From Callorhinchus milii (Eukaryota), in contig NW_024704742.1 in NCBI RefSeq assembly GCF_018977255.1, positions 123,878,001 through 123,942,000 of the forward strand: 64,000 nt of DNA, read 5' to 3'. The number at the start of each line of letters is the position of its first letter. The first letter of the stretch is position 1. Of the stretch, positions 15,765-60,611 are shown piece by piece. The notes beneath the pieces are model-generated. The model saw nothing but the letters and a program-made list of their open reading frames with translations. It had not been told where the DNA came from and did not search any database. Both the position numbers and the translations under genes were made by a program.

Positions 15765-15827
15765 ATGGAGTGGGACCTGGGAAGAAAAACTTTTTCTAAA
15801 GTCCAGACAGGGGAGGAGATGCAGTGG
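15765..15827 (+). CDS. CDC20B: CDC20B coding exon 1 (MEWDLGRKTFSKVQTGEEMQW)
   Basis: ATG at 15765; peptide aligns with the recalled human N-terminus MEWKLERTAPRRVRTEEEMLW; GTAAGT donor at 15828, phase 0. Confidence 0.92.
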
Positions 15828-16291: not shown

Positions 16292-16363
16292 GAGAAAATA
16301 ATGAAGAAGCTTGCCAATGAAACACCGTGGAATTCACAGCAGTATTCCCATCGACTATTCAAG
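16292..16363 (+). CDS. CDC20B: CDC20B coding exon 2 (EKIMKKLANETPWNSQQYSHRLFK)
   Basis: ttttatttcgtag acceptor, AAG|gtatgg donor, phase 0/0; resembles human ESIMRVLSKDL. Confidence 0.88.
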
Positions 16364-16961: not shown

Positions 16962-17218
16962 TATATGATCCTAATGGCACTGAGATTGCTGCCTTGTAAT
17001 TTCTCCTTGTTTTTCACAATGTTCTACTTATTTCAAACCATGTAGTATTTATATTCATTAGTTTAGAGTTCAAAACATCACATTTGTGGAATGAATTTAT
17101 TTGTAAGTTTGAGTGTGCCAAAAATATACTGTTGTGAAGTGCAGTCTGGAGTTCAAGCTTAAAGCAGAAACATCACTATTACATTGAGTTCAAAGAAAAG
17201 AGAAGGAAGCATGTAGGG

Positions 17219-17296
17219 ATGTGGTGGTTAGGCAGTGTACTGCTAGCTGGCTGTTGTGTCTGACAGGTTAGCAGCTGCTAGCTACACTCCACACTG
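17219..17296 (+). ncRNA. MIR449: miR-449 hairpin 1 (miR-449c-like); 5p about 17229-17254 UAGGCAGUGUACUGCUAGCUGGCUGU
   Basis: GGCAGUG seed; close to human miR-449c UAGGCAGUGUAUUGCUAGCGGCUGU; complementary 3' arm gcagctgctagctacact at 17271; in CDC20B intron 2. Confidence 0.92.
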
Positions 17297-18132
17297 CTGC
17301 ATCTGAGAGCACTTCATCATCAGAGTCTTCACTGACTGCTGGAGCTTTATCTTCCAATACAATTCAATATATTAAAATTCTGAGACTTTCGGAACTATTT
17401 TGCTATGATTCAATGAAAAGATTTTCTTTAAATATCTTTTTGCCCATCGATCCTGCACTGGCTCTCAGTACAAGTTGTTCATTCAATCCCACTGCCCCGC
17501 CCAATCCCCATACCTCTTTAATTCTTTTAATGTGAAAGGCGCTTTACAAATGTAATTTGTTGTTGTTCTTTAGTCACTCACTCCTCTACCAGTGGAAATA
17601 ACTTCTCCCCATGTACCCTGTCAAAATCCTTTATAATTTTGTATTCTATCAGGTTCCTTCTTAACTTTGAAAACAGACCCAACTTCTCCAGTCTCTCCTC
17701 ATAACTGTTAACTCAATATCATTCATCCTGTATTATGAGCTGTTTGTTCCATGGACTAATACCCACCAATAACTGCATTGAGACTGTTCAACCTTATTGA
17801 TTTGTGCTGCTTTTATATCACAGTTCAGCTGTCATCCTGGCTTTAAATTGGGTGCTGAATTATAATAATAATCCTTGTATTTGATATAGTGCCTTATCAT
17901 GTCTTCGAGATGTTTCAAAGCATTTAACAGAATATACTGTAAAGTGTTGTGACTGTGTATTTTGTGGGCGAAATGCAGCAGTTTGTTACTTATTAAGGAA
18001 CAGATGACTATGAGTGAACAAACACAGGTCAGTTAAAAATGAGTAAAGTACTCTGTGTCAGTGACTTTTAGCTAAAGATTTCACTCATTCCTTTAATCTT
18101 ACAATAAGGCAGAACGTTCACAATGAAGTGCC

Positions 18133-24265: not shown

Positions 24266-24910
24266 GTCAACAACAACAAAATTACATTTATATAGCACCT
24301 TTCACATTGGGAGCACATCCCGAGGCGCTGGACAGTCAGAGTTTTAGACCCAAGCTGGGAGTTGGGATTGGGGAGGGTGGGGAGCACCCTCTTGAGATGG
24401 GCCTTGAAAAAGGCAAGGTGGGGGTGAGGAGGAGGGACTGCGGGATGGAGTTCCAGAGGGTGGGGACAGATTGGCAGATGGTCCGCCTGCTAATGGTGGG
24501 GCAGGTGAGGTGGGGGACGTGAAGCAGGCTGGAGCCCGCTGAGTGGAGGGAGTGGGCAGGATGGTAGAGGTTTCGGAGGTTGGAGAGGTAGGGGGGAGCA
24601 AGTATGGAAGGCTTTGAAGGACCAGGATCTTGAACTGTATCCTCTGCGTGATGGGAAGCCAGTGGAATCGGGTGAGGATGTGGCTGATAGGTTCACAGAG
24701 CCTGGTGTGGGAGAGGACACGGGCTGCAGCATTCTGGATGATCTGTAGCCTATGGAGGGACAGGTTGGGGAGGCCGACAAGTAAGGAGTTTGTATAGTCA
24801 AGACTCGATGTAATGAAAGCGTGTATGAGTATTTCAGTTTTCTGAGGTGTGAGACCGTGGTGGAGCCGGGGTGATGTTGCAGAGAGGGGGAAGGCAGAGC
24901 AGGTCATGAC
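24266..24910 (-). mobile_element. L2-type LINE 3' fragment in GPX8 intron 2
   Basis: LIHAFITSSLDYTNSLL...IQNAAARVL...FHWLP; (CAA)n tail on +. Confidence 0.88.
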
Positions 24911-26959
24911 ATGGTTGAATCAGATTAGAGCCAATAGTGGCTCCTAGCACATGGAAGTCAGTGACCAAATAAAGCCAATCATAGTGCGATAAATCATGGT
25001 ACATAGGTATTTGGTTCCGTGAACATCAAAGATTGCTTTTATAAATGGGATGGTGCAGGCTGTTTCCGATAATTAGTGTATTTTTTAAACATCAACTTCA
25101 TCCTAGGTGCTGGGAAACACACTTGTGCAGCATTTGTGTTGGACCTGAAGTGTTACTCAGCTGTGTATTATTTTCTTGCTTGGAAGTAATGTAATTTACT
25201 TAAATCCTTGGTTAAGCCATATTTGGAATACTGTGTCCATTTCTAATTGTTGGTCTGCAGGAATGATATTCTAGCATTGGAGATAGTAAAGCATAGAGTT
25301 ACCAACAACAACAAATTACCTTTGTGTATCGCTTTTCACGTCAGGAGGACGTCCAAAGGCGTTGGAATTATAATCCTTGCATTTGATATACAATATAAAA
25401 TTACATTTGCGTAGCACCGTTCACATCAGAAGGATGTCTCAAGGCGCTGGACAGTCAGGGATTTGGATCTGAGCGGGTGTGGGAGGGGGTAAGGGAGGGT
25501 GGAGGGCAGGGAGGGTAGGAGGGTGGGCGAAGGCATCATCAAAGAGGAAGGTCTTGAGACGTGCTTTGAAGGGAGCAAGGCAAAGGGAATGTGGGATGGA
25601 GTTCCAAAGATTGGGGGTGGAGAAGCTGAAGGCCCGACTGCTGATGGTGTGATAAGTGCCTTATCATGTCTTCGAGATGTCTCAAAATGCTTCACAGAAT
25701 ATACTGTAAAGTGAATTGACTGTATATTTTGTGGGCAAAACGTGGTAGCAAAATGTGCACAGCAGTGTCCCCCAACAGTCGTGGATTGAGTGAGCAAAAT
25801 ATTATTTTTTTCTTAAAAAGTGATTTTTACCCCCAGAAAAGCGATCCGCCAATCTACTAACAACCGGGTTCCTACTTACTGCTAGGTAAACAGAGGCGTG
25901 TGGAGTAAGGAAAATTGCCCAACGTTTCAACTTGTCTAGGAATCAAACCCAGTCCACTTGTTTGCGAGGCGAGTGCTTTAACCACTGAGTTACTAGGAAT
26001 TTTCCAGGGATGAGTGGATACCCCTATCAAGAACGATTGAGACAGTTTGGAGTTTAGAAATGAGATGAGACAAATAAGAGGGGATTCAAATTATAGGATT
26101 CAATAAGGTGGACATTAATACGCTAGGAGGAACTTTGTTATGCAGAGAATGATGAACCCACTGCCAGAAGATGAGATTGAAGCAGAAAGCATCAATGTAT
26201 TTATGAGGAAACCTGATGCAAACTTGAAGGAGAAGGGAATATTCTATAAATAAAAGTTAACCCCATACCAAATGCTGCATCCCCATCAATCCAGTCCTTA
26301 CCATGTCCCACTGGCCCCCTATCGAGAATGGATCAATTTTAAAAAGCTTTGCACTTACTTACAAATCAATTAATGTCCTGATATCTTCCTACCTTTCTGG
26401 CCTGCTTACAGCCTCTCACACTCTAGTACTTCTCCCCCACCTCCCCTACCCCCACTCACCCCCTGGTCAGCTGGCTCCAGCCTTTTACACGTCCCTCAGG
26501 CCCTTCGTTGCCAGTGGCTGTGGTTTCAGGCGCTACACTGGAACCTCAGGAACTCTCTGCCTCAATCCCTTGCACGTCTTCAGATCGCATCTGAAGACCT
26601 TCCTCTTTGACTGTGCCTCCCCTCTCTCCCCGGCTCGGCATCACAGAGCTCCACCACTTTTGAGCGCTATGAGACGCTGAAGGGTGCTATGTAAATGCAA
26701 GTTGTTGTTACTGTTAAATGAATATTTTGGTCACTCAATCCACGACAGTTTGTGGGTTACTGCTGTGCGCAATGGAGGCTGCGTTTCGCCCACAAAATAT
26801 ACTGTTGATTCACTTTCCAGTATATTCTGTGAAGCGCTTTGAGATGTCTCGAAGACGTGATTAGGCGCTATATCAAATGCAAGGATTATTATTATTAACG
26901 TTATAAATTACAAACAATAATAAGGCAACATGAAACGATTAGAGAGAGCAGCATCTCAC

Positions 26960-30662: not shown

Positions 30663-31727
30663 GTGACAGAAAAAAAGAAACATCTAATGTCTCATTTTAA
30701 AACTAACACAGCTGGAAACAGGGTGAAGTGGGAGCTGCCAAGCCCAGTTGCCTGTAGCAGCCCAGTGATTGCACAGTGGCAGCACTTACACAGGAGAGAA
30801 GTGAGAAGTGGGGCTGTTGGCCAAACTTCAGTAGTGGCAATAGTTGAGTCAGGACCACGGTCGAGGGTTGGCAGTGGAGCAGCGACAGTAACAGAGACAG
30901 GGGTTAGGGCTGGAGCAGGTACAGTAACCGAGACAGGGGTTAGGGCTGGAGCAGGGACAGTAACCGAGACGGGGGTTAGGGCTGGAGCAGGGACAGTAAC
31001 CGAGACGGGGGTTAGGGCTGGAGCAGGGACAGTAACAGGGACAGGGGTTAGGGCTGGAGCAGGGACAGTAACAGGGACAGGGGTTAGGGCTGGAGCAGGG
31101 ACAGTAACCGAGACGGGGGTTAGGGCTGGAGCAGGGACAGTAACAGGGACAGGGGTTAGGGCTGGAGCAGGGACAGTAACAGGGACAGGGGTTAGGGCTG
31201 GAGCAGGGACAGTAACAGGGACAGGGGTTAGGGCTGGAGCAGGGACAGAGGTGGGGCTTGGAATAGGGACATGGGTTAAAGATAAAGCAGTGACACAACC
31301 TTGGGCTGGAGCACAGACAGTAGCAGGAACTGAGAATACAGTGACAGAAATAGGGGCAGCAACAGCAACAAATTACATTTGTATAGCGCCTTTCACATCA
31401 GGAGCATGTCCCAAGGCGCTGACAGTAAGGACTGGGACTTTAACAGGTGCCGGGATAGTGACTGGAACTGGGGCAATGACAGGAGCCGAGGCTGGGACTG
31501 AGACACGGTTGGAAACTGAGACTGGTACAGGGGAAGTAATAGGAGGTGGACCTGAGACTGTAATAGTGACTGTAATAGAGCCAGGAACTGGGTTGTAACG
31601 GTGAGGGGGGCAGAGGCAAAAACAGGAATAGGGGCTCTGGGCACATATGGACGCTACACGCACAGAAATACAGCCTGTCAGGCAGCATGTCCAGCACATC
31701 ATGAACCAACATTACAGACTCCAGCAG
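30663..31727 (+). CDS. CDC20B: CDC20B coding exon 3, expanded; contains a 1-nt frame break near 31590
   Basis: tttgtag acceptor; SHFKTN...SPVACSSPVIAQWQ matches human SDFKSN...VPVASSPITTRWQ; 3' end EPTLQTPA-G matches human EQLKTPSK-G; strong CAG|gtatga donor at 31728 whose phase 1 (in the downstream frame) fits exon 4. Confidence 0.7.
30885..31244 (+). repeat. Coding minisatellite, 10 x 36 bp, encoding TVT(E/G)TGVRAGAG
   Basis: Unit acagtaac(c/a)g(a/g)gac(a/g)ggggttagggctggagcaggg in frame with CDC20B exon 3. Confidence 0.97.
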
Positions 31728-32658
31728 GTATGAGAGCTCTGTTGTGTCATAATAAACTGAGGTGTTCAGTATTAATATTTTACACAAACTTAATATTATA
31801 CTGTATAGCCAAAAGAAAAGGAAACCAGACAAATAATGACGAGAGGTACCCATTAAATGCTGTCGGAATAAACTTTTTTTTACACAAAAAATCACAGGAA
31901 ATGGCCAGCACGGTGAGAAAATGTCAAAAATACAAACACCAAAAGATACCCCTTTCCCCAGAATCTATTTGATGTAATGCTCTTTTTTTTTCTTGTGCTT
32001 ATCGCAATTCTACATATTATTATATAAACGATAACACACTCTGAAGTTAAAGACAGGTTCTTAATACATTCAGAATTAAGCAATTCCAAAGAAAATGTAC
32101 CTTCAGGGAAACATTTAGGTTTAAAAGCAGCCACTAGGTGGTGCAATAACACAACATACACTATGTAGGCATTTGCTGCTGTTGTTCAGTGGTCAATAAT
32201 TGATTGCCACTTAATAAGGCATTTTTATAGATCCTTAACACCACAACTCAAAGTGCTTCTCAGGTGATTATTGTCAAGTGCAGTTTTTATTCTCTAGCGT
32301 CAGCACAGTCTCATAAACATCCATAGGGTAAATTTGGTCAGCTATTAATTCTTCAGCATAGATGTCATTGGAAATCATTTTTGGAACAGCGTAAAGACGA
32401 GCCATTATGCCTTTTTAATCTATAAAAATGCTTTAAGCAAGAACACAATATTTGTAGCATGCGTGTATTGTATTAAAGTCATTATAAATGTGTTTTTCAG
32501 TTCAATGTATCACATAGCATCAAAGGTGAAAAAATATATACAGGAAGCCCTTAGGAGTTCCGATCTATAAGTTATTTTATTGACTTAAAACAGACATCAA
32601 ACATCATTCTCATCTTGTTTCTGTTTGTCTATTCACACATTAATGATTTTGCTTTCAG

Positions 32659-32807
32659 TTATGACCAGAATCGCAGAGACTAATGAGGAGACAAAAACTC
32701 CAACAAGCATTACTCATGACTACATCTCGGATCATAAGCTCGTAAACCTACAAATCGCCAACCATCATTCACACCATCACCAGAAGGTCAACGGTGTCAT
32801 AAGACAA
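32659..32807 (+). CDS. CDC20B: CDC20B coding exon 4 (V)MTRIAETNEE...QKVNGVIRQ; donor could alternatively follow 32786
   Basis: ttttgctttcag acceptor, phase 1; RIAETN resembles human GISETSN; two in-frame phase-0 donors (AAG|gtcaac, CAA|gtaggc). Confidence 0.65.
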
Positions 32808-33746
32808 GTAGGCGAACAGAGAGTATCTTACAAAATAATGGTACAAAACTTATATTTTATGTTGTCAGTGAATGTTTGCTACCTATGGCCTACATCAGCT
32901 GTTTTTTAAAAAAAAAAGGAGAATATTTTATAAAATTAATAACATTTGTTAAAATTAATCATATCATATTTTTCACTTCATCTCTGCCTCTCCATGCTTT
33001 GACTCTGTTTCATTACTGAAGATACCCTATAAAATGTGCTAGGATTTTAAACTTAAAAACAGAAGGGTACCGAGTGCTTCTGGTAACCTCCCTCTCCCCG
33101 GCTCGGAGTCAGGTTCTGACACCGTTAAACGTCCTGAGCCTCTGACCGGGTGACGGGTGCTATATAAATGCAAGTTGTTGTTGTCGTCTCATGAATGATT
33201 TTCCTAAGAAAATTTTGTCAACCAGATAGCCATAAAATAAAATTTGCTGTTTGCTGGATCTGCTCTCTGAACTATAGACATTAAACAGGCAAATTAGTAG
33301 GAAGCTTATGTAGGTTCACAAGATGCTAAATTGGAGTGAGAAGATCAACCCAGAGCGCTGTTCATCAATAATAATAATGTATAATAATAATCAATGGCTG
33401 AAGTGGATTATTCAGGAGGGTGGTTGTGGCTTAGATACTGAACCCGTTTAAGAAGTAATTAGATGGTGTAATGGGAAATCAATAGGGTTGGTATTCCCGA
33501 AAAATTAGATCAAATGGGTCGATGAGCCCAAGTGCCTTCTTTATCCGATTACCCCTGGTAACTTGGAATAAACAACAACAACAAAATTACATTTGTATAG
33601 CGCACTTCACGTCAGGAGGATGTCCCAAGGTGTTGGACAATTAGTGAATCAGTTAATAACACACAAATGTTGTAAAACAGCCTATTGGAATTTGAATTAT
33701 TTTATTGAAACCAGTGTCCATTCTAACATTTATATATTTTTGACAG

Positions 33747-33840
33747 AAACGTCCGAGGGAGGCTTCTAGCCTAAATCGTTCTGAAATAAACAAGTACCAA
33801 GATGTGAACATTTCTGGAAAATGCAGTGAAACATTTAAAG
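33747..33840 (+). CDS. CDC20B: CDC20B coding exon 5 (KRPREASSLNRSEINKYQDVNISGKCSETFK-G)
   Basis: tttttgacag acceptor, AAAG|gtacag donor; 94 nt, phase 0 to 1, links exon 4 to exon 6; SETFKG resembles human SECVWKG. Confidence 0.7.
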
Positions 33841-36466
33841 GTACAGTGTTAAGCTCTCTGGGACGCTACCCTGCAAGTTATATAAATACAAGTTTTTGTT
33901 GTTGTTGACATTATTTAGTTGCTTGCTCCTGCTTTGTTGAATTTATAGGTAAGGATTGATTCTTTTAATGATATAACATACATAACTGGGATCAAACTAT
34001 CCCTACTGGTACAGTAGGTGCCTATGGCAGGATTAGTGGACTGTATCCTAGGATATTTAACAACAAATTGCATTTATATAGCACCTTTTACATTGAGAGG
34101 ACGTCCCAAGGTGCTGGACAATGAGGTTTACATCCGAGCTGTGGGTCAGGATCAGAAAGGGGTGGAGGGCAAGGAAGTAACTTATAATTTATCAATAATT
34201 TAGAAAAATTAAGACGCACTAACAAACATTATGAGAGAGTCAGTTGCTACTGGTGAGGTTTCACCAGACTAGAAACAAGCAGATGGGATTCTTAGGTTCA
34301 AAAAAGGTCACACAACTATACCTGGCAACTACAGACCCATTTCCCAGACCATAGTAATTGGAAAAATTATAGAGTTAATACAATACAAAATTACATTTGA
34401 ATAGTTCCGTTCATGCCAGGAGGACGTCCCAAGGCACGAATCATCAGAAAGAAAATGGAAATGCATAAAATAACTTTCCAGCCAGCTTGGATTCAGAAGG
34501 GATAGATTTTGCTGACCATGCACTACCACCACCACAACAACAACTTGCATTTATTTCGCAGATCAGATAAAGCAGGCTCTTTGGCTGTGGAAGCTAAGCT
34601 TTGTATATAGAAAGCAAGAATGGGAGGCACAAATACTTCATGGATGGGTTAGAACTTGCCAGCAGTGAAACTGAAAGACATCTAGGAATGTGAGTTGACT
34701 CATCAGTCAAAACAGTGTGAGGCAGGAATTAATAAGGCAAACAGAATGCTGGGCTAGATTGCCAAATCAGCTTAGATCCTCAGAAGTCAAGCTATATATA
34801 GTACTCTGGTCAGTCCACACCTAGAGTTCTGCATGCGGTTACAGTCACTGCAGCATAAGAGACTACCTAGACCTTACAGGCTGCATGTAGGACTCAAACA
34901 AGATTCATTAAACAACTTGATGCTGTGATGGGAGGAAGGAAGACTGGGATCTCTGGAAAGATGAGATCAAATGCGCTGAAGGGCCTTGTTATCTGAAGCT
35001 CTGTTGTGATTGGCCTGTCTGCTCTGTGACTCATGGTGCGATGATAAGAAGTAGAAGTAACTGTAAAAGTTACCCAGATATGATATAACCTTCATACCTG
35101 ATGTTTGCTGACCGCTGAACCATGGTTATAGTTTCCATTTAAACCCAAGCTGAGTAGGTCTAGAGTGTGATTTGTGTGTGTCCTGTGGTGCTATTGATGA
35201 TCTAGACACGCAAAGTACATCTACTGCCTGATGCACTGCTGACCACAGAGATGCAAACCTCACAGTCTCTCTCAATTCCTCTCCTGCCGCCACATTAAAC
35301 AATACACTAAAACATCTTAGGGCTACTTTATTTGCAAAACTGTGAACGATATAAAAGCAGCACGTTTTAGCAATAATAACACGATAACATTTTCATTGCT
35401 GTATTTTTGAAAGTCTGTGTTTAGTTTAGTAAACTGTTTTGAAGAGATAACTGCTGTTTATAACCTTTCATCAGAAACCCAAATGTTTTTCTCTATTGGA
35501 TGCAGATTGACCTGGGCAGCAGTCCTGTTTATATTTTAGATTTCCAGTATGCAACGTTTTTCTTTCTATTAGATCACCAGAGATTAAGTAGATCATAGCC
35601 CATAACTAGCAGAATTAGATCTACAGCACCGAGGCAAGTCATTCTGCTCATTTAGTTTATTACGGTATTTATTATTCCACTTGAACCTCCACATATCCTA
35701 ATCTCTCCTCCCGAGCCTCCCTGCTCCACTTGCCTTTCTGCACCCACCCCCTATTACTCCATCCTGGAGCCCCTCTGTCTTGCTCCTCTCTTGCCTCCTC
35801 CAAGGCCCATCTCAAGACCTTGCTCTTCAATCGTGCCTTTGGTCATCTTCCCACCACCAAACCCCTTGCCCTCCACCCCTCTTGACTCCAGCCTCCAGCT
35901 CAGGTCCAAACCCTTGACTGTGCAGAGCACCTTGGGACATCCTCCTGATTTGAAAGGTGCTATATAAATGCAAGTTGTTGTTGTTTACCTTTCTAATTCT
36001 TCTCCCTTGTGTAGTAAAGATAGATGTTTGCCAAGCCTTCACAGGGATGTGAGCATAGAAAATGGACGAACTAAATCATCTTGATAAACAGGTGCATATA
36101 CAAAGTTGCCTTGAGAAAAGGATGCCAACTGAGATTACTGAAATACAAACAAATGTTTTTGCTCTTTCCCCTTCTCCCAAATAATTGAGGAGGAGTCTTT
36201 CAAAGGGTAAAATGATGTGCTGACAGGGTCCTGCTCAGAGGCATATCTTTCACAGCAACTAACTTAAAATTAATTATTAGTGAAATGATACCGTTCATCT
36301 ACTTTTCAAATGACTTTGAAAAACAGAAATTTGTGATGGATTTCACTTCAAAGAATTTTGAAAATAAGAAATGCCACATGAAGGTGAGGTTCGAAAAATC
36401 TCGCTGCCCTGCACCTATCCATTAATTATTGATCAACACAACAAAACAATCTGCGGTTTGTTTCAG

Positions 36467-36589
36467 GGCACAAGAGCAATCTGGGTGATCTTTCTCTTCA
36501 CAATTCAATTGATAACAAGGCAGACAAACGACACGTACCTTCAGTCCCAATGAAAATCTTGGATGCTCCAGGTCTGAAGGATGATTACT
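36467..36589 (+). CDS. CDC20B: CDC20B coding exon 6 (...KRHVPSVPMKILDAPGLKDDY)
   Basis: tttcag acceptor, T|gtaagt donor; ILDAPxLxDDYY is the start of the Cdc20/Fizzy WD40 domain. Confidence 0.93.
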
Positions 36590-37285
36590 GTAAGTATTGC
36601 TATCCATTACTATCCCCACCAAAATTCCTCTAGTTTACATTTTAGACTTTGAACATAATCATCAAGAAATTTTTTAAAAAAAATTCTTCCCTACTTATCC
36701 AAAAGTACTAACTTGGGCTGGGATGCAATTCTAATGGCTTCAGTTCTCCCCATTACCGCATCCAAGTGTCAACTCTTTATATGTGACCCTAAAATGTAAG
36801 GTCTTTATACACTTGTCCCAATTATAAACCATGGATTGCTTTTATTGCAATCCGTTTATGATGGACCCCAGTGAGTGCCAGCATGCTATTTAGCTATAGG
36901 CCATCAAGGGTGAGCCTGATCTTGTGCCTAACCATTGTATATAGATTTTAAAGCAATGGGAGCAAGAATTCTTATTGCTTCTTCATCTCCGGAGTTAGAA
37001 TTGTGATACCAGCTGCAATGTTACTACTCCTGTTCCAGCTGAAATTGTCTAACCTAAGATTATACCTTTCTTGTCTATGTGGATCAGTTGTGTTAACAAC
37101 TATGCCAATTTGAAAATTGATTTTGATGAATTAACTCTTGTTGATCTTCACAAATAAAAATTCATCCTCAGATAAATCAGTAATTGACATGATCAGGATT
37201 TGCTGAGAAAAACTTCTAAGTAACATCCTATGAAATCAAGATGACCAACTCATCTTTTGATACCATTATTCATTGTATTTTCTAG

Positions 37286-37473
37286 ATCTCAATTTGATTG
37301 ACTGGAACACCACAAATCTTATAGCCATTGCTCTTTCCAATGTTGTGTATGTTTGGCTCCCAGAGTCTGAAGCATTTGAGGCCATAAAAGTGGAATCTGA
37401 CTATGTCTCATCAGTAGCCTGGATTAAAGATAGAAACAACCTTGCACTTGGAACTAGTGCTGGTGACGTGCAG
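37286..37473 (+). CDS. CDC20B: CDC20B coding exon 7 (YLNLIDWNTTNLIAIAL...LGTSAGDVQ)
   Basis: WD40 Cdc20-family sequence; tctag acceptor, CAG|gtaaca donor. Confidence 0.96.
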
Positions 37474-37997
37474 GTAACAGAATGGTGGTCAGTGTATTCT
37501 CACTTCAATTTGGTTGACTGGAAAGATTTCAGATAATAATTTCTGAATGTCAAACCACATAAGCACTTGCAATGAATTGTAAGTACGTAAAATTAGATAG
37601 AACAATACCTTGTGGGTGTTTTTACACCACATGAGCCTCCACCTCTCCTAATCGCCTTTCCCATATCTCTCAATTCTGTTCTCCTTCAACCATGCAGTAA
37701 ATAAAAGTAAGTAAATAAGCAAGTAAAGAAAGGGAATAATTTATCCACTAGCCTATTAATAAAAATAATAATAATCCTTGCATTTGATATAGTGCATCAT
37801 CATGTCTTCGAGACATCTCAAAGCGCTTCACAAAATATACTGTAAATAATTGTGGGTGAAACGCGCAGCCAATTGTGCATAGCAGTGTTCCACAAACAGT
37901 CCACAATCCACAAGTAGTGGATTAAGTGACCAAATTATTATTATTATTTTTTGAAAGGGATTATTACTCCAGGAAAAATGATCCGCCAATCGACTAA

Positions 37998-39107
37998 GCC
38001 ATACTCTGGCTCTCGTCAACATCGAAAATCTCATGGCTCTCACCTCCTCCACCTACTCGACCTCCCCCTAAAACTCTCCGAACCCGTACGCAACCTAGGT
38101 GTCAGGTTCGACCCCCAATTATTCTTCCTTCCCCGCATCCGGTCCCTCACCAGCACCGCCTCCTACCACCTCTGACGCATCGCCTGTCTCCGCCAATACC
38201 TCTAGCCAAAAGCCGCTGAAACCCTGGTCCGTGCCTTTGTCACCTCTCGGCTGGACTACTCCAATGCCTTCCTCACCGGTCTCCCATCCACTACCATCCA
38301 TAAAATCCAAATCATTAAAAACTCTGCCGCCCACATTCTCACCCACACCAAACTCCGCTCCCCGATCACCCCAGTCCTTGCCAGACTGCACTGGCTGCCT
38401 GTCCCAGAGCGGATGGATTTCAAGATCCTCACCCTTGTATTTAAGTCCCTGCACTCCTCTGCGCCCCCCTACCTCTCTGCCCTCCTCTCTCCTCAAAACA
38501 GTACCCGTTGCCTCCGTTCCTCTGGGTCTGGCCTCCTCCTCGTCCCTGGAGTCCTCCGCTCCACCCTCGGCGGCTGTGCCTTCAGCCACTATAATAATAA
38601 TAATAATCCTTGCATTTGATATTGCGCTTTCCACGTCGGGAGGACGTCCCAAAGCGCTTCACAGAACACACTGTAAAGTGAATTGACTGTATATTTGTGG
38701 GCGAATGCACAGCAATGTCCCACAAACAGTCGTAGTTTGGAAATGACCAATTTATTATTCTTTTTGGTTTTGGAGGGATTATTATTAGGCTCTATGTGGA
38801 GTAAGGAAACTTGCCCAAGGTTTCGCCCTGCCTGGAATTGAACTCAGCTTGCAAAGCGAGTGCTCTAACCACTGAGCTACAGGACTCCACTATGCCCCGA
38901 GGCTGGGGAAACTGTCTTCCTCACTCCCTTCGTTTCGCTTCCTCCCTTCCCATTTTAAGGTCTCTGCTGAAGACCTTTCTTTTTGACTATGCCTTTGGTC
39001 ACATTCCTCTCCCTCCCCCTGGCTCGGCCCCGGGATCCGTTACTGTAAAGCGCTCTGAGATGCCGTCCGGCGTGGAGGGCGCTATATTAATCCAAGTTGT
39101 TGTTGTT
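37998..39107 (+). mobile_element. 5'-truncated L2-type LINE (ORF2 C-terminus plus (GTT)n tail)
   Basis: VRNLGVRFD and LHWLP-type ORF2 remnants with stops; GACTAA flanking duplication. Confidence 0.88.
38593..38888 (-). mobile_element. Young SINE nested in an L2 fragment
   Basis: Same family; CCACTAT duplication at 38586 and 38887. Confidence 0.9.
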
Positions 39108-39732
39108 GACTAAAAAACAGGTTCCTACTTACCGCTAGGTCAACAGAGGCGTGTGGAGTAAGGAAACTTGCCCAACGTTTCGCCTTGCTGGGAATCGCAC
39201 CCAAGTCTCTTGCTTGAGAGGCGAGTGCTCTAACCACATGACTTCAATGCAGGCTCTTAGCTCCCCAAATATTATGCATAATAATTGAATAACACTAAAT
39301 TATTTAAATTATTAAAATAATACCAGTGCCCTCTTTTCCCAGATCAGCCCCAGCTCGCCAGCCTGTAATTGTCAAACATTTTGAAATGTATTCCCGTCGT
39401 GAAAGTCTCTTCTATAAATGTAAATTGTATTATATTATCTCTGAAGAGATCTATCACAAAAGACATGAAGAAAAGCTTGAAAAATTAAGATTTATTTTCA
39501 CTAGAGCTAAGATGTTTAAGTTTAAGGGATGACCTGAAAGAAGTATTCAAGATTATGATTAGGATAAATAATAAATTATTCCACCGGGCTGTGTACCAGT
39601 AACAAGGGCACAAAACGTAAGATAATCACAGAAAAGGGATGTTGAAATAAATCTTGACACAGAGGAAACATTCTGTACCTTGAATGGAAAAGGTGACTTT
39701 GCCACAACTGAAAATAATTGTTTTTCTCTTAG

Positions 39733-39827
39733 TTGTGGGATGTTGAGACTAAGAAAAGGATACGAAACATGCAGGGTCATAGTTCAATGGTTGGATCACT
39801 GAGCTGGAATGATTACATTCTTAGCAG
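39733..39827 (+). CDS. CDC20B: CDC20B coding exon 8 ([31 protein letters not shown])
   Basis: Matches human [26 protein letters not shown]; canonical splice sites, phase 0 to 2. Confidence 0.96.
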
Positions 39828-40561
39828 GTATGGCCATTTGCCAAAGCACTTTAACATCACAGTGAATCTGCAGCAACATGCTGATAAATTGCAGTGTGAT
39901 ATGAAAATAAAAAATATTATAATCATATTAAGCACAGTGATAGTCAGACAATGCCAGAAATATGAAGCATTGTGGTATTTTTGAACCAAGCCAAAATTTG
40001 CAGCTTTATAGTGGACATGATCTGTGTTATCATCACATCGTCTTTATTTGAAACAAAAAGCTAACACCTATCTAATCTTCGAAATGCAGCGAGTTTCCTA
40101 TTCTTACTGATACCATCAATTTTGCTCAAGCAAATGACATATTTGTACTTCAATATGTATGCTGCAAAATGCAGTGACATGAAAAGTAACATGCACAATT
40201 TTGTGCTGGAGACTATGTCAAGTCAACATTTGCCTGGAGCCTTTGAATCCTAGTGGTATCTGGCCCATGATTTTTTGTGTGAGTATACATGTGTGTCAGA
40301 CCAGTTGGAACAGAAGGCAAGTAGGAAACTGCTTTGGAGCTTTTCTAAAAGGAGGCTGCAGATTTCACTGTGATCTAATGTTACAAAAATCAATTTGCAA
40401 ACATTTTATTTTACAGATTGATACCTGGGGCATCATATGATTTCAAAAGTGAATTTTTTCTATGGATATAGTCTTATGCGATGTCATGCCCCGATTTAGA
40501 ATCTTAGCATGTCAGGATCTTATTTCTTTCTTTATTTATTAATCTGCTTTATGTTCTTCAG

Positions 40562-40793
40562 TGGTTCAAAATTTGGCTCCATTCACCACCATGATGTACG
40601 GATAGCACAGCACCATGTTGGAACACTCTGTGGGCACACCTCTCAAGTCTGTAGTCTGAAATGGTCACCGAATGGCAGGTTCCTTGCAAGTGGAGGCAAT
40701 GATGGGTTGCTGAACATCTGGCCCAATGCTCCAGGAGCTGGTGTTAGGACTGTACCACACAGGACCATTGACAATCGCCAGTCAGCAGTGAAG
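40562..40793 (+). CDS. CDC20B: CDC20B coding exon 9 ([23 protein letters not shown]...QSAVK)
   Basis: [14 protein letters not shown] and IWPNAPGA are CDC20B-type; canonical splice sites, phase 2 to 0. Confidence 0.96.
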
Positions 40794-40854
40794 GTGATAG
40801 ACAAATTTCATATTTCTACTGTCGCATGTTTTAAGGAAGTATTTTGTGGTAAGT

Positions 40855-41173
40855 AATAATAATAATAATAATCCTTGCATTTGATATAGCGCTTTTCATA
40901 TCGGGAGGACGTCCCAAAGCGCTTCACAGAACACACTGTAAAGTGAATTGACTGTATATTTGTGGGCGAACGCGGCAGCCAATTGCGCACAACAATGTCC
41001 CACAAACAGTCGTAGATTGAAAATGACCAATATATTATTGTTTTTGGTTTTGGAGGGACTATTATTAGGCGTGTGGAGTAAGGAAACTTGCCCAAGGTTT
41101 CGCCCTGCCTGGGATTGAACTCAGGTCTCTCGCTTGCAAAGCGAGTGCTCTAACCACTGAGCTACAGGACTCC
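40855..41173 (-). mobile_element. Young full-length tRNA-derived SINE in CDC20B intron 9
   Basis: Reverse complement of the 54173 copy. Confidence 0.93.
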
Positions 41174-41296
41174 ACAAGTTATACTCAACATTTTGCTTTT
41201 AATTCTTTTAAAAGTTGATGAAAAGCCCAATAAGTGTGATGAAGAAAACAAAGTGAATATTGTCATTTAACAGTGTTTCAATTTCCATTTCAATAG

Positions 41297-41422
41297 GCCA
41301 TAAACTGGTGCCCCTGGCAGCCAGGAATTCTAGCTGTCGGGGGAGGAATGAAAGATGGACATTTACGGATTTGGGACACAAAGACAGGGAGCTGTGTGAA
41401 TGATGTAGACACAAAGTCACAA
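41297..41422 (+). CDS. CDC20B: CDC20B coding exon 10 (AINWCPWQPGILAVGGGMKDGHLRIWD...DTKSQ)
   Basis: GGGMKDG is the CDC20B form (CDC20 has GGGTSDR); AG/GT boundaries, 126 nt. Confidence 0.96.
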
Positions 41423-41459
41423 GTAAGATGTTCTTCAAGCTCTTTGAGGCATCCTCCTG

Positions 41460-41710
41460 ACATGAAAGTGAAATTAGGAGGCAGTTTTTCACCCAAAGGA
41501 TATTGGGAATCTGGAACTCTCACCGTCAAAATGTTATGGATGCTGGATTCATTCACAATTTCAAGACTGAGGTGGATAGATATTTGTTAGGTCAGGGTAT
41601 CAAGGGATATAGGGCAAGGATGGGTAATTGCAGTTGAGGTACAGATCAGCCATGATCTTATAGAATGGCAGAACAGACTTGATGGGCTAAATGGCCTACT
41701 TTCTATGTTT
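41460..41710 (+). mobile_element. CR1-type LINE 3' end
   Basis: TTCAAGACTGAGGTGGATAGAT...GATCAGCCATGATCTT...GGGCTAAATGGCCTACT, typical of shark CR1 tails; a further degraded CR1 piece at about 34210-34990. Confidence 0.7.
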
Positions 41711-43556
41711 CTAAGGTGCTATATAAATGTAAACTACATTGTAATATGACCTTGAAATTAATAGGCAGAGAAAAACAAATATGAAATAAGAAAGTGCTAG
41801 AGAAGCACAAATTTGACAGTAGATTCTGACAATACATTTATACTGTTGTACAATGAATCGTTTTGCCAGTTCTGGATCAGGCAAGACCAAACACTGAGTT
41901 AGATATCTCATTGTCTCTGCTCACAGGAGAACTAATTTGATGGTGAAGAGTCCGACCGAGCAGATCCCAATAGTGTTCCATGCTTGAACGCATGTCTTGA
42001 TGTCATCCTGCAAGTAGCATAATGACATCAAGTCATTTGCTCGCCTACAGGGGCTTTTTGGAAGCTCAATGGCAGCAAAATCACAATGAAAGCTGGGAGA
42101 AAGTTGTCTGATGTTTAGAAGCATGTCCCAGCTTTCACTGCCATTGTTTTGTTCCAGCGGATATAATCCATCCAAAAACTGACTGTTTATATGTAGATGT
42201 CTTAATGTCTTTGCAGTACTTAAGCAATCAATTCAAGTCAGTTAGTACATTTTGAACACCATTTGACACAGATGGTCTTGAAGGGTCTGCAAAAATGCCA
42301 GCTCCGGTTTATGAGCCTGCTTTCACGACTCCAGAGACCCTGAGAATTTGAATATAAAAGCTGTGTGAGAGGATCAGCATTAGGCAACCAACAAAGCTGC
42401 TATAATAATCCTTGTATTTGATGTAGTGCCTTTCACATCAGGAGGAGGTCTCATACAATGACTGTAAAGTATAGTACTGTAAATAATTTAGTCACTTCAA
42501 TCCAGATTGTTTGTGGGACACTGCTGTGCGCAATTGGCTGCTGTGTTTCACCCACAAATATACAGTCAATTTATTTTACAGTATATTCTGTGAAGCGCTT
42601 TGAGACGTCTAGAAGATGTGAAAAGTGCTATATCAAATGCAACGATTATTTGTCATAGTGTTTGTGTATTTCGTCAAAAATGGCAGCCAGCTTGCTCATA
42701 GCAATGTCTCACAAGCAAACAACTTAACAGCAACAACAACAAATTACATTTGTTTAGCGCCTCTCACATTGGGAGGATGTCCCAAGGTGTCGGACAGTCG
42801 AGTATCCACTCCCTAGCTGGTGGTTGGGATCAGAAGGGGTGGAGGGCAGGGAGGATCGGGGTAGGAAGGTGACCGAAGACTCAGTTGAAGAGGAGGGTCT
42901 CGAGACGGGCCTTGAGACGGGCCTTGAAACAGGCAAAGATGGGGGCAAGGCGAAGGGACTGTGGGATGGAATTCCAAGGCATAGAGGTAGAAAAGCTGAT
43001 GGTGGGGGATATTGGAGCAGGTCAGAGCCCGCTGGGCGGAAGGAGTGGACAGCTTGGTATAGAGTTAGCAGGTCACAGAGTTAGAGAGGAGCTAGGGCGT
43101 GGAAGGCTTTGAAAGCAAGAGCAAGGGTTTTGAACTTTATCTGCAGATAACAGCAAACTACCCAGTGACTTCCTGTAAAGATGGTTAAATACACAAGTAT
43201 GTGTGTAACTCTGTGGGGTGATGAAGTTGACCATATGTGTGAGAAACCGTACTGAAATTTCCCTCTGTACAATTTGTTCTACTGCTGTGTGTGTGTAGAT
43301 ATATATACATAAGTTGGTATGTCTAAAACCACTTAAAAGCTGAACCAAACTTATTTATTTATAGAGAGTTCTGGTTCCACTTTTTTAGTTCAGCTGTACC
43401 ACAACAAAAATAAATGCCTTTGATACTGTAATACATTGTCACCAGACATGATCAAAGAAAACCTTCACAGTGACAAGGCAGTTTTTCAGCTTTTAAGAAT
43501 AGTTTTTGAAAGAAAACCCTGCATGATACTGACAGTAATTCTCTTGTACTTTGTAG

Positions 43557-43674
43557 ATTTGTTCACTGATCTGGTTACCAAAGTATAAGGAGTTAGTTAC
43601 TGGCCACGGATTTCCCAGTAACCAAGTTTCTGTCTGGACTTATCCATCCCTTAGCAAGTCAACTGAGCTCAAAG
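43557..43674 (+). CDS. CDC20B: CDC20B coding exon 11 (ICSLIWLPKYKELVTGHGFPSNQVSVWTYPSLSKSTELK-G)
   Basis: Matches human ICSLIWLPKTKEIATGQG; ttgtag acceptor, AAAG|gtactg donor. Confidence 0.95.
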
Positions 43675-46600
43675 GTACTGTTTGGATCCTCTCTTTGACT
43701 GTAAGAAGATGTGAACACATTAAGGAATATGGTTCTTCCCAGACAGATTTTTTAAAATGTTTTTTTCAGCAAAATGCAAGAGAAGAATTTTTTTTGACAA
43801 AAGTCTTTTTTACTACATTACAAATTATGTTTCCTTTACCCTGCACCATAAATAAGCGTTGAGGCAATGTGTATAGTGTTGGAGAAGCTGGTATCAGAAG
43901 CAGTTTAATTTGGATTTCTTCGATATAAGTGCAGCGGGTAGAAAATTAATTTGTGCATATGCCTCTGTGATACTCTAAAACTCGCATCCAGGAGTTGATC
44001 ATGCCACCATCTATTTAATAATGTTATAAAAACAAACACCTAATTTCGGAGTTTTGTGCACATGCACCTCTGAAACCTTGTGTTAATTTGTAACAGCCCC
44101 CAATGCTTGGTGTATTGGTCGTGCTTCCTGCTCCACATTGGTCTACTGCTGGAAGTGCATTCGCTTTTGCTTGCAGCAGCACGAATAAAAAAAGTGTTAA
44201 TGTTAAAATGCTGCTGATTTGTACAAGACTGTATGTGACAACGAACGGCATTGATAGTTGACGAGAAAGCAGAGCAATAGCAGGTTGGAGGTTAATGAAG
44301 ATCTGCAAATGTATGAGCGGTGACAGAAAGCGAGAAGGTTGCCCACCATGTAGATGTGTGGTACAGTGGCCTGCAAGTCCTTTGTACGTTTGACGCAGAC
44401 AGCAGACTACCGATGGTACAATTGAGCCACATTTTTCATTTTGTTTGTTACTTCACATTCGTGTGAGCTGAAGAAGATCAATGCTGAGGAACGCCTTGGG
44501 ACGTCCTCCTGACGTGAAAGGCGCTTTATAAATGGAATCTTGTTGTTGTTGTTGTTGAACGGAATACTGGGGTATTATAATTATCATCACTAATATGGTT
44601 AAGCCTGTATCTTTGTGAAGCAGCACTGAATGATACACTCTGCACTTACAAACAGTGTTCTGCCTTCAACATAAGGTGGTTCTCAATTTTGTTTAGCCAA
44701 TGACTATTTGTTTTTTAGGGATTATTATCCCCGGAAAAGCGATCCGTCAATCAACGACAACAGGGTTCCTATTTATTGCTACGTAAACAGTGGCGTGTGG
44801 AATGAGGAAACTTGCCCAACATTTCGCCCAAACTCCAATATAAACAAGGTCCAAATGTTCAAAATCCAATCCTCATCCTTACGAGGCTCCACACTCTCAT
44901 CACCCCAGTGCCTGCCAGGTCCCCTTGCTCCCTGTTGCAGAATGAAATTTCAAGATCTTCACTCTCACTTTGAAATTTCTTCCCATTTGGCACCTTCCTA
45001 TCTCTCTGATTTGCTCACACACCACTCCACTACCTGCTGGCTTCTCTCAGCTGGCACTGGTCCCCTCCGCTCCTTACTTGATGGCCATGCTTTCAATCAC
45101 TGTGCCCCAAATCTCTGGAACTCTTTCCCTCAAACCCTCCGTCTTGTCCCCTCTTTGCCCATCTTCAAATCACACCTGAAGACTTTCCTTTTTGACTGTG
45201 CCTTCAGTCACCTTCCCATCCCTTTCTAACTCGGTGTCAAGCCATTCTTAAATGCTCCAAGGCACTATCTGTTTGAAGGATCCTTTATAGTGCAAGTTGT
45301 TGTTGTTATGCCCTAAGTTATGGTACTCCCTGTCTCTAGAGGGCTTATTCACTAGTCTGAATTTGCTGCAATTGAAGCTGATTAATAAATTTGTATTCAT
45401 TGTGAATAAACTCACAAATGTCTTATCATGGCCTGAAATTTGCCATTAGCTGCATTTGAATTTGAAGAAGAGCAAAGTTTTGATCCAAGGGCTTGGATAA
45501 GTATCATTTATTTTGATACAGATCAGTTCTATTAAAAGAAAGAACATTTGGAGGTTTTAACGATCTAACATTGCTCATTGTGATAACATTGTGGGTTTTC
45601 ACAGTTGCTTTGGTCTGTTGGTTGCAATTGCATCCATAAGGTGCTGCTAAACCAATGTAGCAATTTAATAACCTCAGATATCTCCAGAGTCTAGATAGTA
45701 TTTGAGAAAATAACACTCAAAGAGTAAGTAAAGTCACAAGATCACACAAAAGATTAGATTGAAAAAGATCTTTATCAAATGTAAGAATTATTATTATATC
45801 CATCCAAAATACCCACTATACCATTCTATTCTTTTTAAATGAGTCCAGCGTCCTAGCCGCTAGTGACCTGGTAACCTGCTCCAGTGGTTAATTACCCTCT
45901 GGGTAAAGAAACATTGTCTGGTGTCCATCCTAAATTGCCCTTTGCAATACTAAACCTGTGGCTTCTTGTTCTGCTGCCTCTGGGTTTATTTTCTCAACAA
46001 CAACTTGCATATATATAGCACCCTTCACGCCAGATGGCGTCTCAGAGAGCTCAGAGTGCTTCTCAATTTCTTTTAAAATCTTACAACTCTGTCTTAGGTC
46101 CCATCTGAGACATCTCTGTTCAAGACTGAAGAACCCGAGCTTGTCGAATCACTGCTCATAACTTATCCACTAACACTGGGAATTGTCCTTGTTGTTTTCC
46201 GCTGCGCTGCCTCTCGGGTCCAGGTAGCCCCTTTATCTCACAATGTCTAGATCTCTACACAGTACTCCAATTCATTTCATGTAATTTTTAATTTTATGGT
46301 CAGTTAAATTCACAGCGCTTTTCTGGGTTACTTTCCTAACAGATGTTGGGAAACTTCATGATATTCATCCAATCCACCATTATCATTACTCAACCTTAGC
46401 CTGCTTTCCTCCACACAATTTCTATTGCAGGATGAGAGGTCAGGTTACCAAGTCATTTATAATAGTAATAATCCTTGCATTTGATATAGTGTCTTATCAC
46501 GTCTGCGAGACATCTCAAAGTGCTTCACAGAATATACTGTAAAGTGAATTGACTGTATATTTTATGAGTGAATTGCAGCACCAATTGCACATAGCAGTGT

Positions 46601-47809
46601 CCCCACAAGCAGTCGTGGATTGAGTGAGCAAATTATTATCATTATTTTTTATTGTTGGAGGGATTATTATTCCCAGAAAAGCTTACTACTGGGTAAACAT
46701 AGGCTTGTGGAGTAAAGAAACTTGTCTAAGGTTTCGCCCTGCCCAGCAATCGAACCCAGGTCCTCTCGCTCTCGAGGCGAGTGCTTTAACCACTACGCTA
46801 CAGGACTCCAAGAGACACAGTTTTTCTTGTCCTGGCATAATCACTCTTGGCACTTTGGTGCAAAGTCTTATGCAGGCCTACTGGTGTGACTCAGCCTATC
46901 TCACTTCAGCCTGGCAAGAGTTTCCTTCTCAGCTCACACAGTCACTGATGCTAATATGAAACAGGTGTCAGCATGACTCAGTGAGTAGCACACTTGCCTC
47001 TGACTCAGTAAGCCCCACGTCAGTCTAAGGTGACTATGCACAGTGCTGGGGGAGTGCTACAGTGTTAAAGGTGTCATTTTCAGATTAAATGTTAAACCCT
47101 GGTCCCATCGACCAATTCAAGTGAACATTAAACATTCTATGGTTTTATTTTTAAAAAAGTGAATTTCTCCTCGTGTCCTGGCCAACATTATCCCAGATAC
47201 AATTGGTCACTCACTTCCTGGCTGTGCACAAATCGGTGGCTGACTTTACCTACAAAATACACAGTCATTATACTTTACAGTAGATTCTGTGAAGGGCTGT
47301 GAGGGAAAGACGCTATATCAAATGCAAGGATTATTTTTTCATCTGCATTTTGTCTATCACAGTCTCTGACCTTCAACTGCAATTTCTCCCTTCAAACACA
47401 CCAGTAACAGCAAAGAGGTATGAGAAGTGGAAAAAGCTGTGGTGAGATACTGCACTGCCTGCGCAGTTAGAAGTTGTGAGTCAATTGGTCCCTTAACAGT
47501 CACAGTTATACAAAAACTCATTTACATCTGCATCACAGGTTGATTTTTTTTGTTTGTTATGAATAAATGATTAAATCTTAAATAAAAGAAATTGTTTAAT
47601 TGTGGTGAATGAACTTTAATGGCCACTTATTCTTTGAACAATTCTGCACAGTAACAAGTCGATACAGTACGATTTCACTTCATGATTTAAGCTGATGCGT
47701 AAAATTAACTTACAGACAGAAAGTGCTATTCAAGGTATCAGTGCATGATATTCTCTGTTCACATTCTGAATGAAACTGGGCCTCAGGTAGAATCTCTGAC
47801 CATTTGCAG

Positions 47810-47961
47810 GTCACACAGGGAGGGTGCTGCACCTGGCTCACAGTCCTGATGGTCGTACATTGGTTTCATTGGCTGCTGATGAAACAGTCTGTTTCTGGAG
47901 TTGTGATGCTGCGGATGAACAGAAAACCAAGGGCTCTGCTTTGACAACACATACCCTGTGA
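47810..47961 (+). CDS. CDC20B: CDC20B last coding exon (GHTGRVLHLAHSPDGRTLVSLAADETVCFWSC...TTHTL*)
   Basis: tttgcag acceptor, phase 1; final WD repeat; TGA at 47959-47961. Confidence 0.95.
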
Positions 47962-60254: not shown

Positions 60255-60369
60255 CTAAGTTGGAAACAAACAAGAAAAATACACATATTGTACTTTAGTT
60301 TATTAAGGAGATGATCTCTGTGTGCAGAATGACAAACAAGCCAATGCTTTATTTATAAATCTAACTTAC

Positions 60370-60532: not shown

Positions 60533-60611
60533 CTGTAATATGAATGTAGAAGTTATTGAAAGGTCGGTTCACAAGCTCTAAGGGTTTTTGAAAGCAAGAA
60601 ATTAACACTGT

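What the first reader, a model, noticed from the sequence alone, without database searches (positions are those of the whole stretch)
31358..31430. Antisense retroposon 3' tail embedded in frame in the CDC20B coding exon
aacagcaacaaattacatttgtatagcgcctttcacatcaggagcatgtcccaaggcgctgacagt is the reverse-oriented L2-type tail seen many times in this window (24266, 29586, 33571, 42730). Here it is translated without a stop as ATATNYICIAPFTSGACPKALTV, and T/G-rich coding continues in the same frame afterwards. It reads gcgctgacagt where other copies read gcgctggacag, a 1-nt loss that may have preserved the frame. This looks like a transposon insertion tolerated inside a coding exon.
Basis: partly seen in the sequence, partly recalled or inferred. 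Interest (0 to 1): 0.7.

Follow-up and report, generated by a model that had tools for sequence, protein, structure and literature searches.

The report
Old retrotransposon tail inside CDC20B exon
A roughly 65-base scrap of a jumping gene sits backwards and in frame inside a long, loosely conserved coding exon of the elephant shark's CDC20B gene and is also present in two related species, so it is most likely an old, harmless passenger and not a new functional part.

Summary
Bases 31357-31421 are the reverse-oriented 3' tail (stem-loop plus short terminal repeats) of an abundant L2-type LINE. They lie between the conserved acceptor (30663) and donor (31728) of exon 3 of Callorhinchus milii CDC20B and read without a stop. 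Contigs of two other species (about 88% identical) carry the tail joined to the same downstream exon sequence, so the insertion is old. Three things lower the surprise: this frame is open in 17 of 21 other copies; exon 3 is a low-complexity linker upstream of the WD40 domain that also took up a 374-base minisatellite; and its 3' part evolves near neutrally (pN/pS about 1). The '1-nt loss' lies at the element's truncated end and may be junction microhomology. Inclusion in mRNA is inferred, not shown. Both public models start at ATG 31476, downstream of the insert, and in-frame cryptic splice sites could remove it. No empty-site orthologue was found. Verdict: real, probably translated, probably neutral.

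The parts
31357..31421 (-). 3' tail of an L2-type LINE, 5'-truncated just beyond the stem-loop, antisense to CDC20B; read on + as about 21 codons (aa ~278-298 of the 825-aa model)
   Evidence: copies; longer copies run from this tail into ORF2 and an RVT_1 domain
31357..31372 (-). terminal short repeats of the element (CAA-type on +), blurred into the host's Ala/Thr codons; left junction not sharp
31385..31420 (-). stem-loop of the tail: 8-bp perfect arms 31385-31392 and 31413-31420
   Evidence: -19.8 kcal/mol, z -1.66, 11 of 200 shuffles as stable
31422..31430 (+). right junction: matches the L2 continuation at 8 of 9 letters one base out of register, and also the host's own motif; either microhomology or a 1-nt deletion
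   Evidence: (table 7)
30663..31727 (+). CDC20B exon 3 (AG acceptor, GT donor at 31728); both ends homologous to shark and ray proteins; low-complexity T/G/A/E/V-rich linker
30875..31248 (+). 36-nt minisatellite, 10.4 copies, open only in the coding frame (0 stops against 10 and 10)
31592..31598 (+). one base missing in the window; frame A ends at TAA 31596-31598; probable assembly slip
   Evidence: P0125 reads through; +1 behind 31592 in X5 and X11; +1 at an unlisted place in the X1 contig 31388-31827
30919..31401 (+). formally possible in-frame cryptic intron (GT 30919, 6 of 9 consensus letters; AG 31400-31401 inside the tail, 11 of 17 pyrimidines) that would remove the minisatellite and two thirds of the tail; use not shown
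31476..31478 (+). ATG at which both public protein models begin, downstream of the insert
15765..15827 (+). CDC20B exon 1 (coding part)
16292..16363 (+). CDC20B exon 2 (72% identical to a ray protein over 25 aa)
17216..17305 (+). mir-449 in intron 2, as known for CDC20B
32659..47961 (+). CDC20B exons 4-12 (32659-32807, 33747-33840, 36467-36589, 37286-37473, 39733-39827, 40562-40793, 41297-41422, 43557-43674, 47810-47961); WD40 domain from aa 510
24268..24919 (-). longer copy of the same element: tail followed by the ORF2 C-terminal region; shows that the tail is a LINE end

Best explanation
An L2-type LINE RNA was reverse-transcribed directly into exon 3 of CDC20B in an ancestor of C. milii and at least two other species. 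Copying stopped just past the 3' stem-loop and the end was joined, probably through short homology with the host's ACAGT motif, leaving about 65 antisense bases. The antisense tail is usually stop-free in this frame, and the net change happened to be (or was soon made) a multiple of three. The exon encodes a low-complexity linker far upstream of the WD40 propeller, so about 21 extra residues were tolerated and fixed. They are spliced in as part of the ordinary exon and translated, with no function of their own. Shown: identity of the repeat, position between homologous splice sites, open frame, presence in three species. Inferred: mRNA inclusion, translation, the joining mechanism, neutrality, and that the window's frameshift is an assembly slip.
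For: Exon ends match shark and ray CDC20B at both sides (the 3' end only weakly, 9-86 of 500 shuffles scoring as well). With one unknown base at 31592, 12 exons with GT-AG introns give an 825-aa frame, 483 of 484 residues identical to P0125. Minisatellite, pre-insert and post-insert segments are each open only in this frame. X5 record 26 (31389-31750) and X11 record 12 (31373-31753) begin inside the tail and cross the right junction with one gap only, the +1 at 31592. No other gap in 339-355 exon bases against about 7 hand-counted events in the neighbouring intron (p 0.05-0.09). The same frame is open in 17 of 21 other copies; about half of the LINE-type copies (9 of 18, judged by eye) end near the stem. 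All ZfL2-1 inserts in DT40 cells had microhomology or extra bases at the 5' junction (PMC4245944). Long internal exons take up indels and tandem repeats in disordered regions (PMC12457776).
Against: Both public models (P0001, P0125) start at ATG 31476, downstream of the insert, and none of the six cluster members covers it. Amino-acid constraint on the 3' part of exon 3 is not detectable: pN/pS about 1.06, third positions 16 of 38 (p 0.16), and a neutral set of 38 changes would leave the frame stop-free 38% of the time. The indel test weakens to p 0.18-0.28 if the gap at 31592 is a real event, and B and C are not independent. One contig each of X5 and X11 shows a 1-base gap at 31347, left of the insert; these may be other copies of the repeat, but this is unresolved. 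As assembled, the window's frame stops at aa 357. In-frame cryptic splice sites exist.
Confidence: 0.66

Rival explanations
1. The tail is mostly spliced out. It supplies a new acceptor (AG 31400-31401, or 31424-31425) that pairs with the donor at 30919 in the second minisatellite unit, making an in-frame intron inside the old exon (intronization, exitron). That would bring exon 3 back to about 190 codons, near the shark length.
For: Both combinations are phase 1 to phase 1 (483 and 507 bases). The donor scores 6 of 9, like three real donors of this gene; the first acceptor has 11 of 17 pyrimidines, inside the real range of 10-13. Only one repeat unit carries the GT. Exon 3 spans 322 residues between two anchor motifs against 135-161 in 10 sharks and rays. 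TE-triggered intronization is known for Alu in a 3' UTR (PMC2394776).
Against: The 36-nt unit is a multiple of three, and all segments inside the proposed intron are open in the coding frame only, which an old intron would not need. An AG lies 15 bases upstream within the acceptor's tract, and the second acceptor has only 8 of 17 pyrimidines. The scores are crude letter counts.
Confidence: 0.14
2. The insert is transcribed but not translated into a full protein: translation begins at ATG 31476 as annotated (insert in the 5' UTR), or the missing base at 31592 is real and the C. milii long form is truncated or decays.
For: Both public models start at 31476. The window itself has the frameshift, and the newer model avoids it with a donor near 31524.
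Against: Exons 1, 2 and the start of exon 3 are conserved with rays and sharks and in frame. 31476 is simply the next in-frame ATG after 30687, as an incomplete model would choose. P0125, X5 and X11 have the extra base, and the X1 contig is one base longer than the window.
Confidence: 0.13
3. The insert-derived peptide has been exapted: a short hydrophobic, two-cysteine island in an otherwise T/G/A/E/V-rich linker acts as a binding or regulatory motif of holocephalan CDC20B.
For: Retained in three species. Composition differs sharply from its flanks (33% F/W/Y/I/C/L against 3% and 11%). X5 has at most 6 unlisted differences over the tail part and two other short stretches together.
Against: No sign of stronger conservation than the flanks; the perfect stem is also common among ordinary copies; sharks and rays do without it (no local match better than shuffles).
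Confidence: 0.07

Closest known systems
L2-clade LINE 3' tail (eel UnaL2, zebrafish ZfL2-1/ZfL2-2; in C. milii L2-2_CM and its partner SINEs SINE2-1_CM, SINE2B-1_CM, SacSINE1-CM)
   Same: About 60 bases made of a stem-loop followed by short terminal repeats (PMC1636434, passages); one UGUAA follows the stem in the element's sense strand; the tail is shared with tRNA-headed SINEs in the window, as described for C. milii (PMC5499810, passages).
   Different: Only the tail is present, antisense and inside a host frame. The exact family (L2-2_CM or another) was not tested: no repeat library here, and the paper's supplement could not be read.
TE-derived coding segments in disordered protein regions (human survey, bioRxiv 10.64898/2026.06.12.731867; MIR exon of IGF-1 and Alu exonization reviewed in PMC7786948)
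   Same: A retroposon fragment read in frame in a low-complexity part of an existing protein.
   Different: Those are mostly new, alternative exons made from intronic copies with their own splice sites. Here the fragment sits in the middle of an ancestral internal exon and needs no new splice site. A survey of fixed indels in internal exons of eight eukaryotes found no TE-derived case (PMC12457776, passage), so this route is uncommon.
CDC20B (vertebrate deuterosome protein, host gene of miR-449; bioRxiv 10.1101/218750)
   Same: C-terminal CDC20/Fizzy WD40 domain (PF24807, E 2.8e-114), mir-449 in intron 2, exon 9 74-79% identical to most shark and ray proteins.
   Different: N-terminal half much longer (825 aa in all against about 519 in human) through the minisatellite, the L2 tail and other linker growth.
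Alu-induced intronization (CWF19L1; PMC2394776)
   Same: A retroposon inserted in an exon can switch on splice sites inside it; formally possible here.
   Different: The known cases lie in 3' UTRs and are backed by ESTs; here it would be a coding exon and no use of the sites is shown.

Membership tests
L2-clade LINE 3' end | stem-loop just upstream of the 3' end | tested here: met
   8-bp perfect arms; the fold shows the stem; energy only modestly better than shuffles (z -1.66)
L2-clade LINE 3' end | short terminal repeats, no poly(A) | tested here: met
   CAA-type repeats at 31357-31372 and in the other copies
L2-clade LINE 3' end | longer copies continue into a reverse-transcriptase ORF2 | tested here: met
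   tail 24268 runs into ORF 24347-24919, 50% identical over 76 aa to 48139-48675, which overlaps an RVT_1 hit at 48617-49156
L2-clade LINE 3' end | RT groups with the L2 clade; match to a named Repbase family | not tested
   no tree built and no repeat library available; 'L2' rests on tail anatomy, PMC5499810 and recalled ORF2 features
L2-clade insertion | short target-site duplication, or microhomology at the junctions | tested here: inconclusive
   no clear duplication; both junctions resemble host motifs; no empty site to compare
TE inserted in a coding exon | lies between ancestral splice sites of one exon | tested here: met
   acceptor 30663 and donor 31728 homologous to shark and ray protein segments; P0125 joins 31727 to exon 4
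TE inserted in a coding exon | open, in frame with upstream and downstream exons | tested here: met
   825-aa frame with one unknown base at 31592; conditional on that base
TE inserted in a coding exon | present in spliced mRNA and protein | not testable with these tools
TE inserted in a coding exon | orthologue with the empty site; net length a multiple of three | tested here: inconclusive
   organisms B and C carry the insert; organism D's contig stops at 31593; shark and ray proteins lack the peptide but are too diverged to fix the junctions
Exapted TE sequence | purifying selection on the TE-derived codons | tested here: inconclusive
   differences inside the tail are hidden under thousands of other copies; the flanking exon shows pN/pS about 1
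Classical exonization | the TE supplies a splice site of a new exon | tested here: not met
   both exon ends are ancestral and lie 690 and 300 bases away; a cryptic acceptor exists but its use is not shown

The most novel reading that the evidence does not exclude
A LINE tail inserted straight into a constitutive coding exon before the living chimaera families split (about 187 million years ago if organisms B and C are non-callorhinchid chimaeras) and its 21-residue peptide, or the acceptor it carries, was then put to use: either as a holocephalan-specific motif in the CDC20B linker or as a splice switch that includes or removes the minisatellite-encoded spacer.
Probability: 0.1. Interest if true: 0.65.

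Novelty: new member of a known kind. Interest (0 to 1): 0.33.

Why it matters
If translated, it is a clean, datable example of an uncommon route by which retroposons add to proteins: direct insertion into an ancestral internal exon, with no new splice site, kept across species about 12% apart. It also shows why L2 tails are well placed to do this (short copies, antisense frame usually open), which can be tested genome-wide in chimaeras. In practice it corrects the C. milii CDC20B model, which lacks exons 1-2 and most of exon 3 and is distorted by a probable 1-base assembly error, and it offers a presence/absence marker for holocephalan phylogeny. It does not point to a new mechanism or function.

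Tried and rejected
This says nothing about expression. Of 24 runs listed, 4 were laid (X1, X5, X11, X14), all contigs, on 31250-32850 only, so the minisatellite and the donor at 30919 were not examined in any run. X5, X11 and X14 gave no cover at 31250-31303, and X14's orthologous contig stops at 31593; these holes are not used as evidence. No whole genome was held. Protein searches for an orthologue with or without the peptide found nothing: residues 196-311 among proteins of 171-545 aa (0 of 643 candidates), residues 1-70 among 546-2000 aa (0 of 23), and 31251-31592 against 1.84 billion representatives (0). Pfam has no family for exon 3. The MAFFT alignment of exon 3 with full shark proteins misplaces the 3' half onto the WD40 domain and was used only for the first ~70 residues. 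Rejected: that the 'lost' base is the one missing from the assembly (adding a base there leads to a stop at 31499-31501; B and C show no gap there). Rejected: the minus-strand P/V/T/A-rich frame 30692-31372 as a gene (mirror of the minisatellite; no start or homologue sought further). Rejected: 'stop-free' as evidence of selection. My first exon table had exon 8 two bases short (false stop at aa 627); corrected. Literature: 'CDC20B'+'shark' gave 4 unrelated papers; 'transposable element'+'coding exon'+'in-frame'+'Callorhinchus' gave 0; the library lacks most subscription papers. Earlier findings of this scan: none near, none by words, none by sequence; the 8 shown of 111 by genome concern other loci. 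No structure was predicted.

Full report
Locus. An exon at 40563-40796 is 100% identical to a Callorhinchus milii protein (P0001), and most shark and ray hits are 74-79% identical. mir-449 lies at 17216. CDC20B is the host gene of miR-449 and has seven C-terminal WD40 repeats (bioRxiv 10.1101/218750; abstract and passages). The gene has 12 coding exons on + from 15765 to 47961, all with GT-AG introns.

Observation. The quoted letters are at 31361-31426 and translate as stated in the frame 30663-31598. 27 other copies lie in the window, the best 84-90% identical. Read on the minus strand, the segment is an 8-bp perfect stem with a loop, then UGUAA and short repeats. That is the anatomy of the ~60-base conserved tail of L2-clade LINEs (PMC1636434 and PMC4176376; passages). 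Longer copies continue into ORF2: the copy at 24268 runs into a frame 50% identical to one that overlaps an RVT_1 hit. tRNA-headed SINEs in the window share the tail, as reported for C. milii SINEs and L2-2_CM (PMC5499810; abstract and passages; supplement not readable). The family name was not tested.

Is it inside a coding exon? The exon starts at 30663 with residues that match the shark and ray proteins closely (KWELPSPVA..). It ends at 31727, where the last residues resemble the shark exon end weakly (9-86 of 500 shuffles as good), and where an older C. milii model (P0125) joins exon 4. Between these ends the minisatellite (36 nt x 10.4), the 110 bases before the insert and the 170 after it are each open only in the coding frame. 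One flaw: the window's frame stops at 31596-31598. P0125 reads through with one more base, contigs of organisms B and C have one more base behind 31592, and a contig from a run of the window's own species (X1) is one base longer over 31388-31827, place not listed. With one unknown base there, the 12 exons give 825 aa, 483 of 484 identical to P0125; the insert is at aa ~278-298 and the WD40 domain starts at aa 510. I read the frameshift as an assembly slip (inference). Against: both public models start at ATG 31476, downstream of the insert, so no annotation covers it. That ATG is the next in-frame one after 30687, which an incomplete model would pick.

Age. Of 24 runs listed four were laid on 31250-32850. 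In X1 (same species label as the best holders) contigs cover both junctions: 31250-31387 with no difference, and 31388-31827. In X5 (organism B) and X11 (organism C) a contig begins inside the tail (31389; 31373) and runs through the right junction to the donor, with 44 and 46 other letters (about 12%) and a single gap, the one at 31592. So the insert, with its single G, is shared, and it stands in the same frame relative to the donor. B, C and D share most differences from the window, which fits other holocephalans (inference; names are coded). C. milii and Chimaera phantasma split about 187 million years ago (PMC12952989, passage); that date applies only if the inference is right. The left junction was not seen in B or C. 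One contig in each shows a 1-base gap at 31347; about ten contigs overlap there in X5, so these may be other copies, and any compensating gap in the tail would be hidden. This is unresolved. No empty site was found.

How surprising is the open frame? Little. 17 of 21 other copies are stop-free in the same frame over the same 63 bases and all 21 in some frame; with flanks included 14 of 28. About half of the LINE-type copies end near the stem (9 of 18 by eye). At 28 copies in 64 kb, 0.3-0.5 insertions are expected in an exon of this size without selection. A short, antisense, stop-free tail therefore needs only a one-in-three chance of the right net length.

The '1-nt loss'. Ten of 27 other window copies have two letters at this place, none one, and the genome-wide continuation has two (table 7). 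But homology ends within nine bases, ACAGT occurs 13 more times in the exon, and several sharks have RTGTLT where the window reads RTGTLT directly after the insert (composition-matched shuffles reach these alignment scores in 3-71 of 500). ZfL2-1 inserts were joined by microhomology or extra bases (PMC4245944; abstract and passages). So the G may never have been there. A later frame-restoring deletion is equally possible; four listed contigs from other loci also align gap-free to 31430, with 11-14 mismatches, which is inconclusive.

Selection. Using the 38 listed differences of X5 (of 44; 33 of 46 for X11), none makes a stop, but pN/pS is about 1.06, third positions are 16 of 38 (p 0.16), and 38 neutral changes would spare the frame 38% of the time. 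The only signal is the lack of gaps: 0 in 339-355 exon bases against about 7 hand-counted intron events, p 0.05-0.09, or 0.18-0.28 if 31592 is real. This is what a linker kept for frame, not for sequence, would show. The exon spans 322 residues between two anchors against 135-161 in 10 elasmobranchs. Long internal exons are known to gain tandem repeats and indels in disordered regions; the same survey found no TE among fixed indels (PMC12457776; abstract and passages).

Rivals. (a) A donor at 30919 and an acceptor inside the tail (31400-31401) would cut an in-frame 483-base intron; the letter counts are like those of real sites, and Alu-driven intronization is known in a 3' UTR (PMC2394776, passages), but the open frame throughout argues against it: 0.14. 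(b) Untranslated or truncated: 0.13. (c) Exapted motif: 0.07. Best reading, translated neutral passenger: 0.66.

Novelty. TE-derived coding segments, enriched in disordered regions, are a known kind (bioRxiv 10.64898/2026.06.12.731867, abstract and outline; PMC7786948, passages). This case was not found in two searches of the held library. It is a new, old and fairly clean member reached by the less common route of direct insertion.

Noticed in passing
window 31592-31598: Probable 1-base assembly slip in CDC20B exon 3; the newer public model (P0001) avoids it with a donor near 31524 and so loses 68 residues that P0125 has. Both models lack exons 1-2 and most of exon 3.
   Followed up: yes
window 30875-31248: Coding minisatellite, 36 nt x 10.4, 95% matches between units, encoding about 125 residues of (T-V-T-E/G-T-G-V-R-A-G-A-G); young and likely length-variable. 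Not examined in other individuals or species.
   Followed up: partly
window 20909, 25303, 28383, 28961, 33573, 34388, 44551, 51520, 1864: Many L2 copies are cut off within a few bases of the 5' arm of the tail stem-loop, which suggests that reverse transcription often ends there. Loose ends also pile up behind 31404 and 31421-31422.
   Followed up: partly
table 5 (X5, X11); window 25303-25460: Many contigs carry the tail twice, head to tail (joints going back 34-61 bases); two adjacent tails lie at 25303 and 25398. Tails may insert next to tails or arise by template slippage.
   Followed up: no
window 26904-27323 and nearby, minus strand: A glutathione-peroxidase-like exon (GPX8 by recalled synteny) lies antisense inside CDC20B intron 2.
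   Followed up: no
window 60369-60761, minus strand: A serine-protease exon (IIGG..CGG..VLTAAHC; granzyme-like by recalled synteny) lies downstream of CDC20B.
   Followed up: no
window 6815, 39180, 41100, 46735, 52483, 54175, 60614: The seven Rfam tRNA hits are, at least for those matched, heads of ~320-base SINEs that end in the L2-like tail, not tRNA genes.
   Followed up: partly
window 17216-17305: Only one mir-449 hairpin reached the Rfam threshold; mammals have a cluster of three. Weaker copies were not sought.
   Followed up: no
P0012: The Narcine model begins with a retrotransposon protease-like segment in place of the CDC20B N-terminus, probably an annotation artefact.
   Followed up: no
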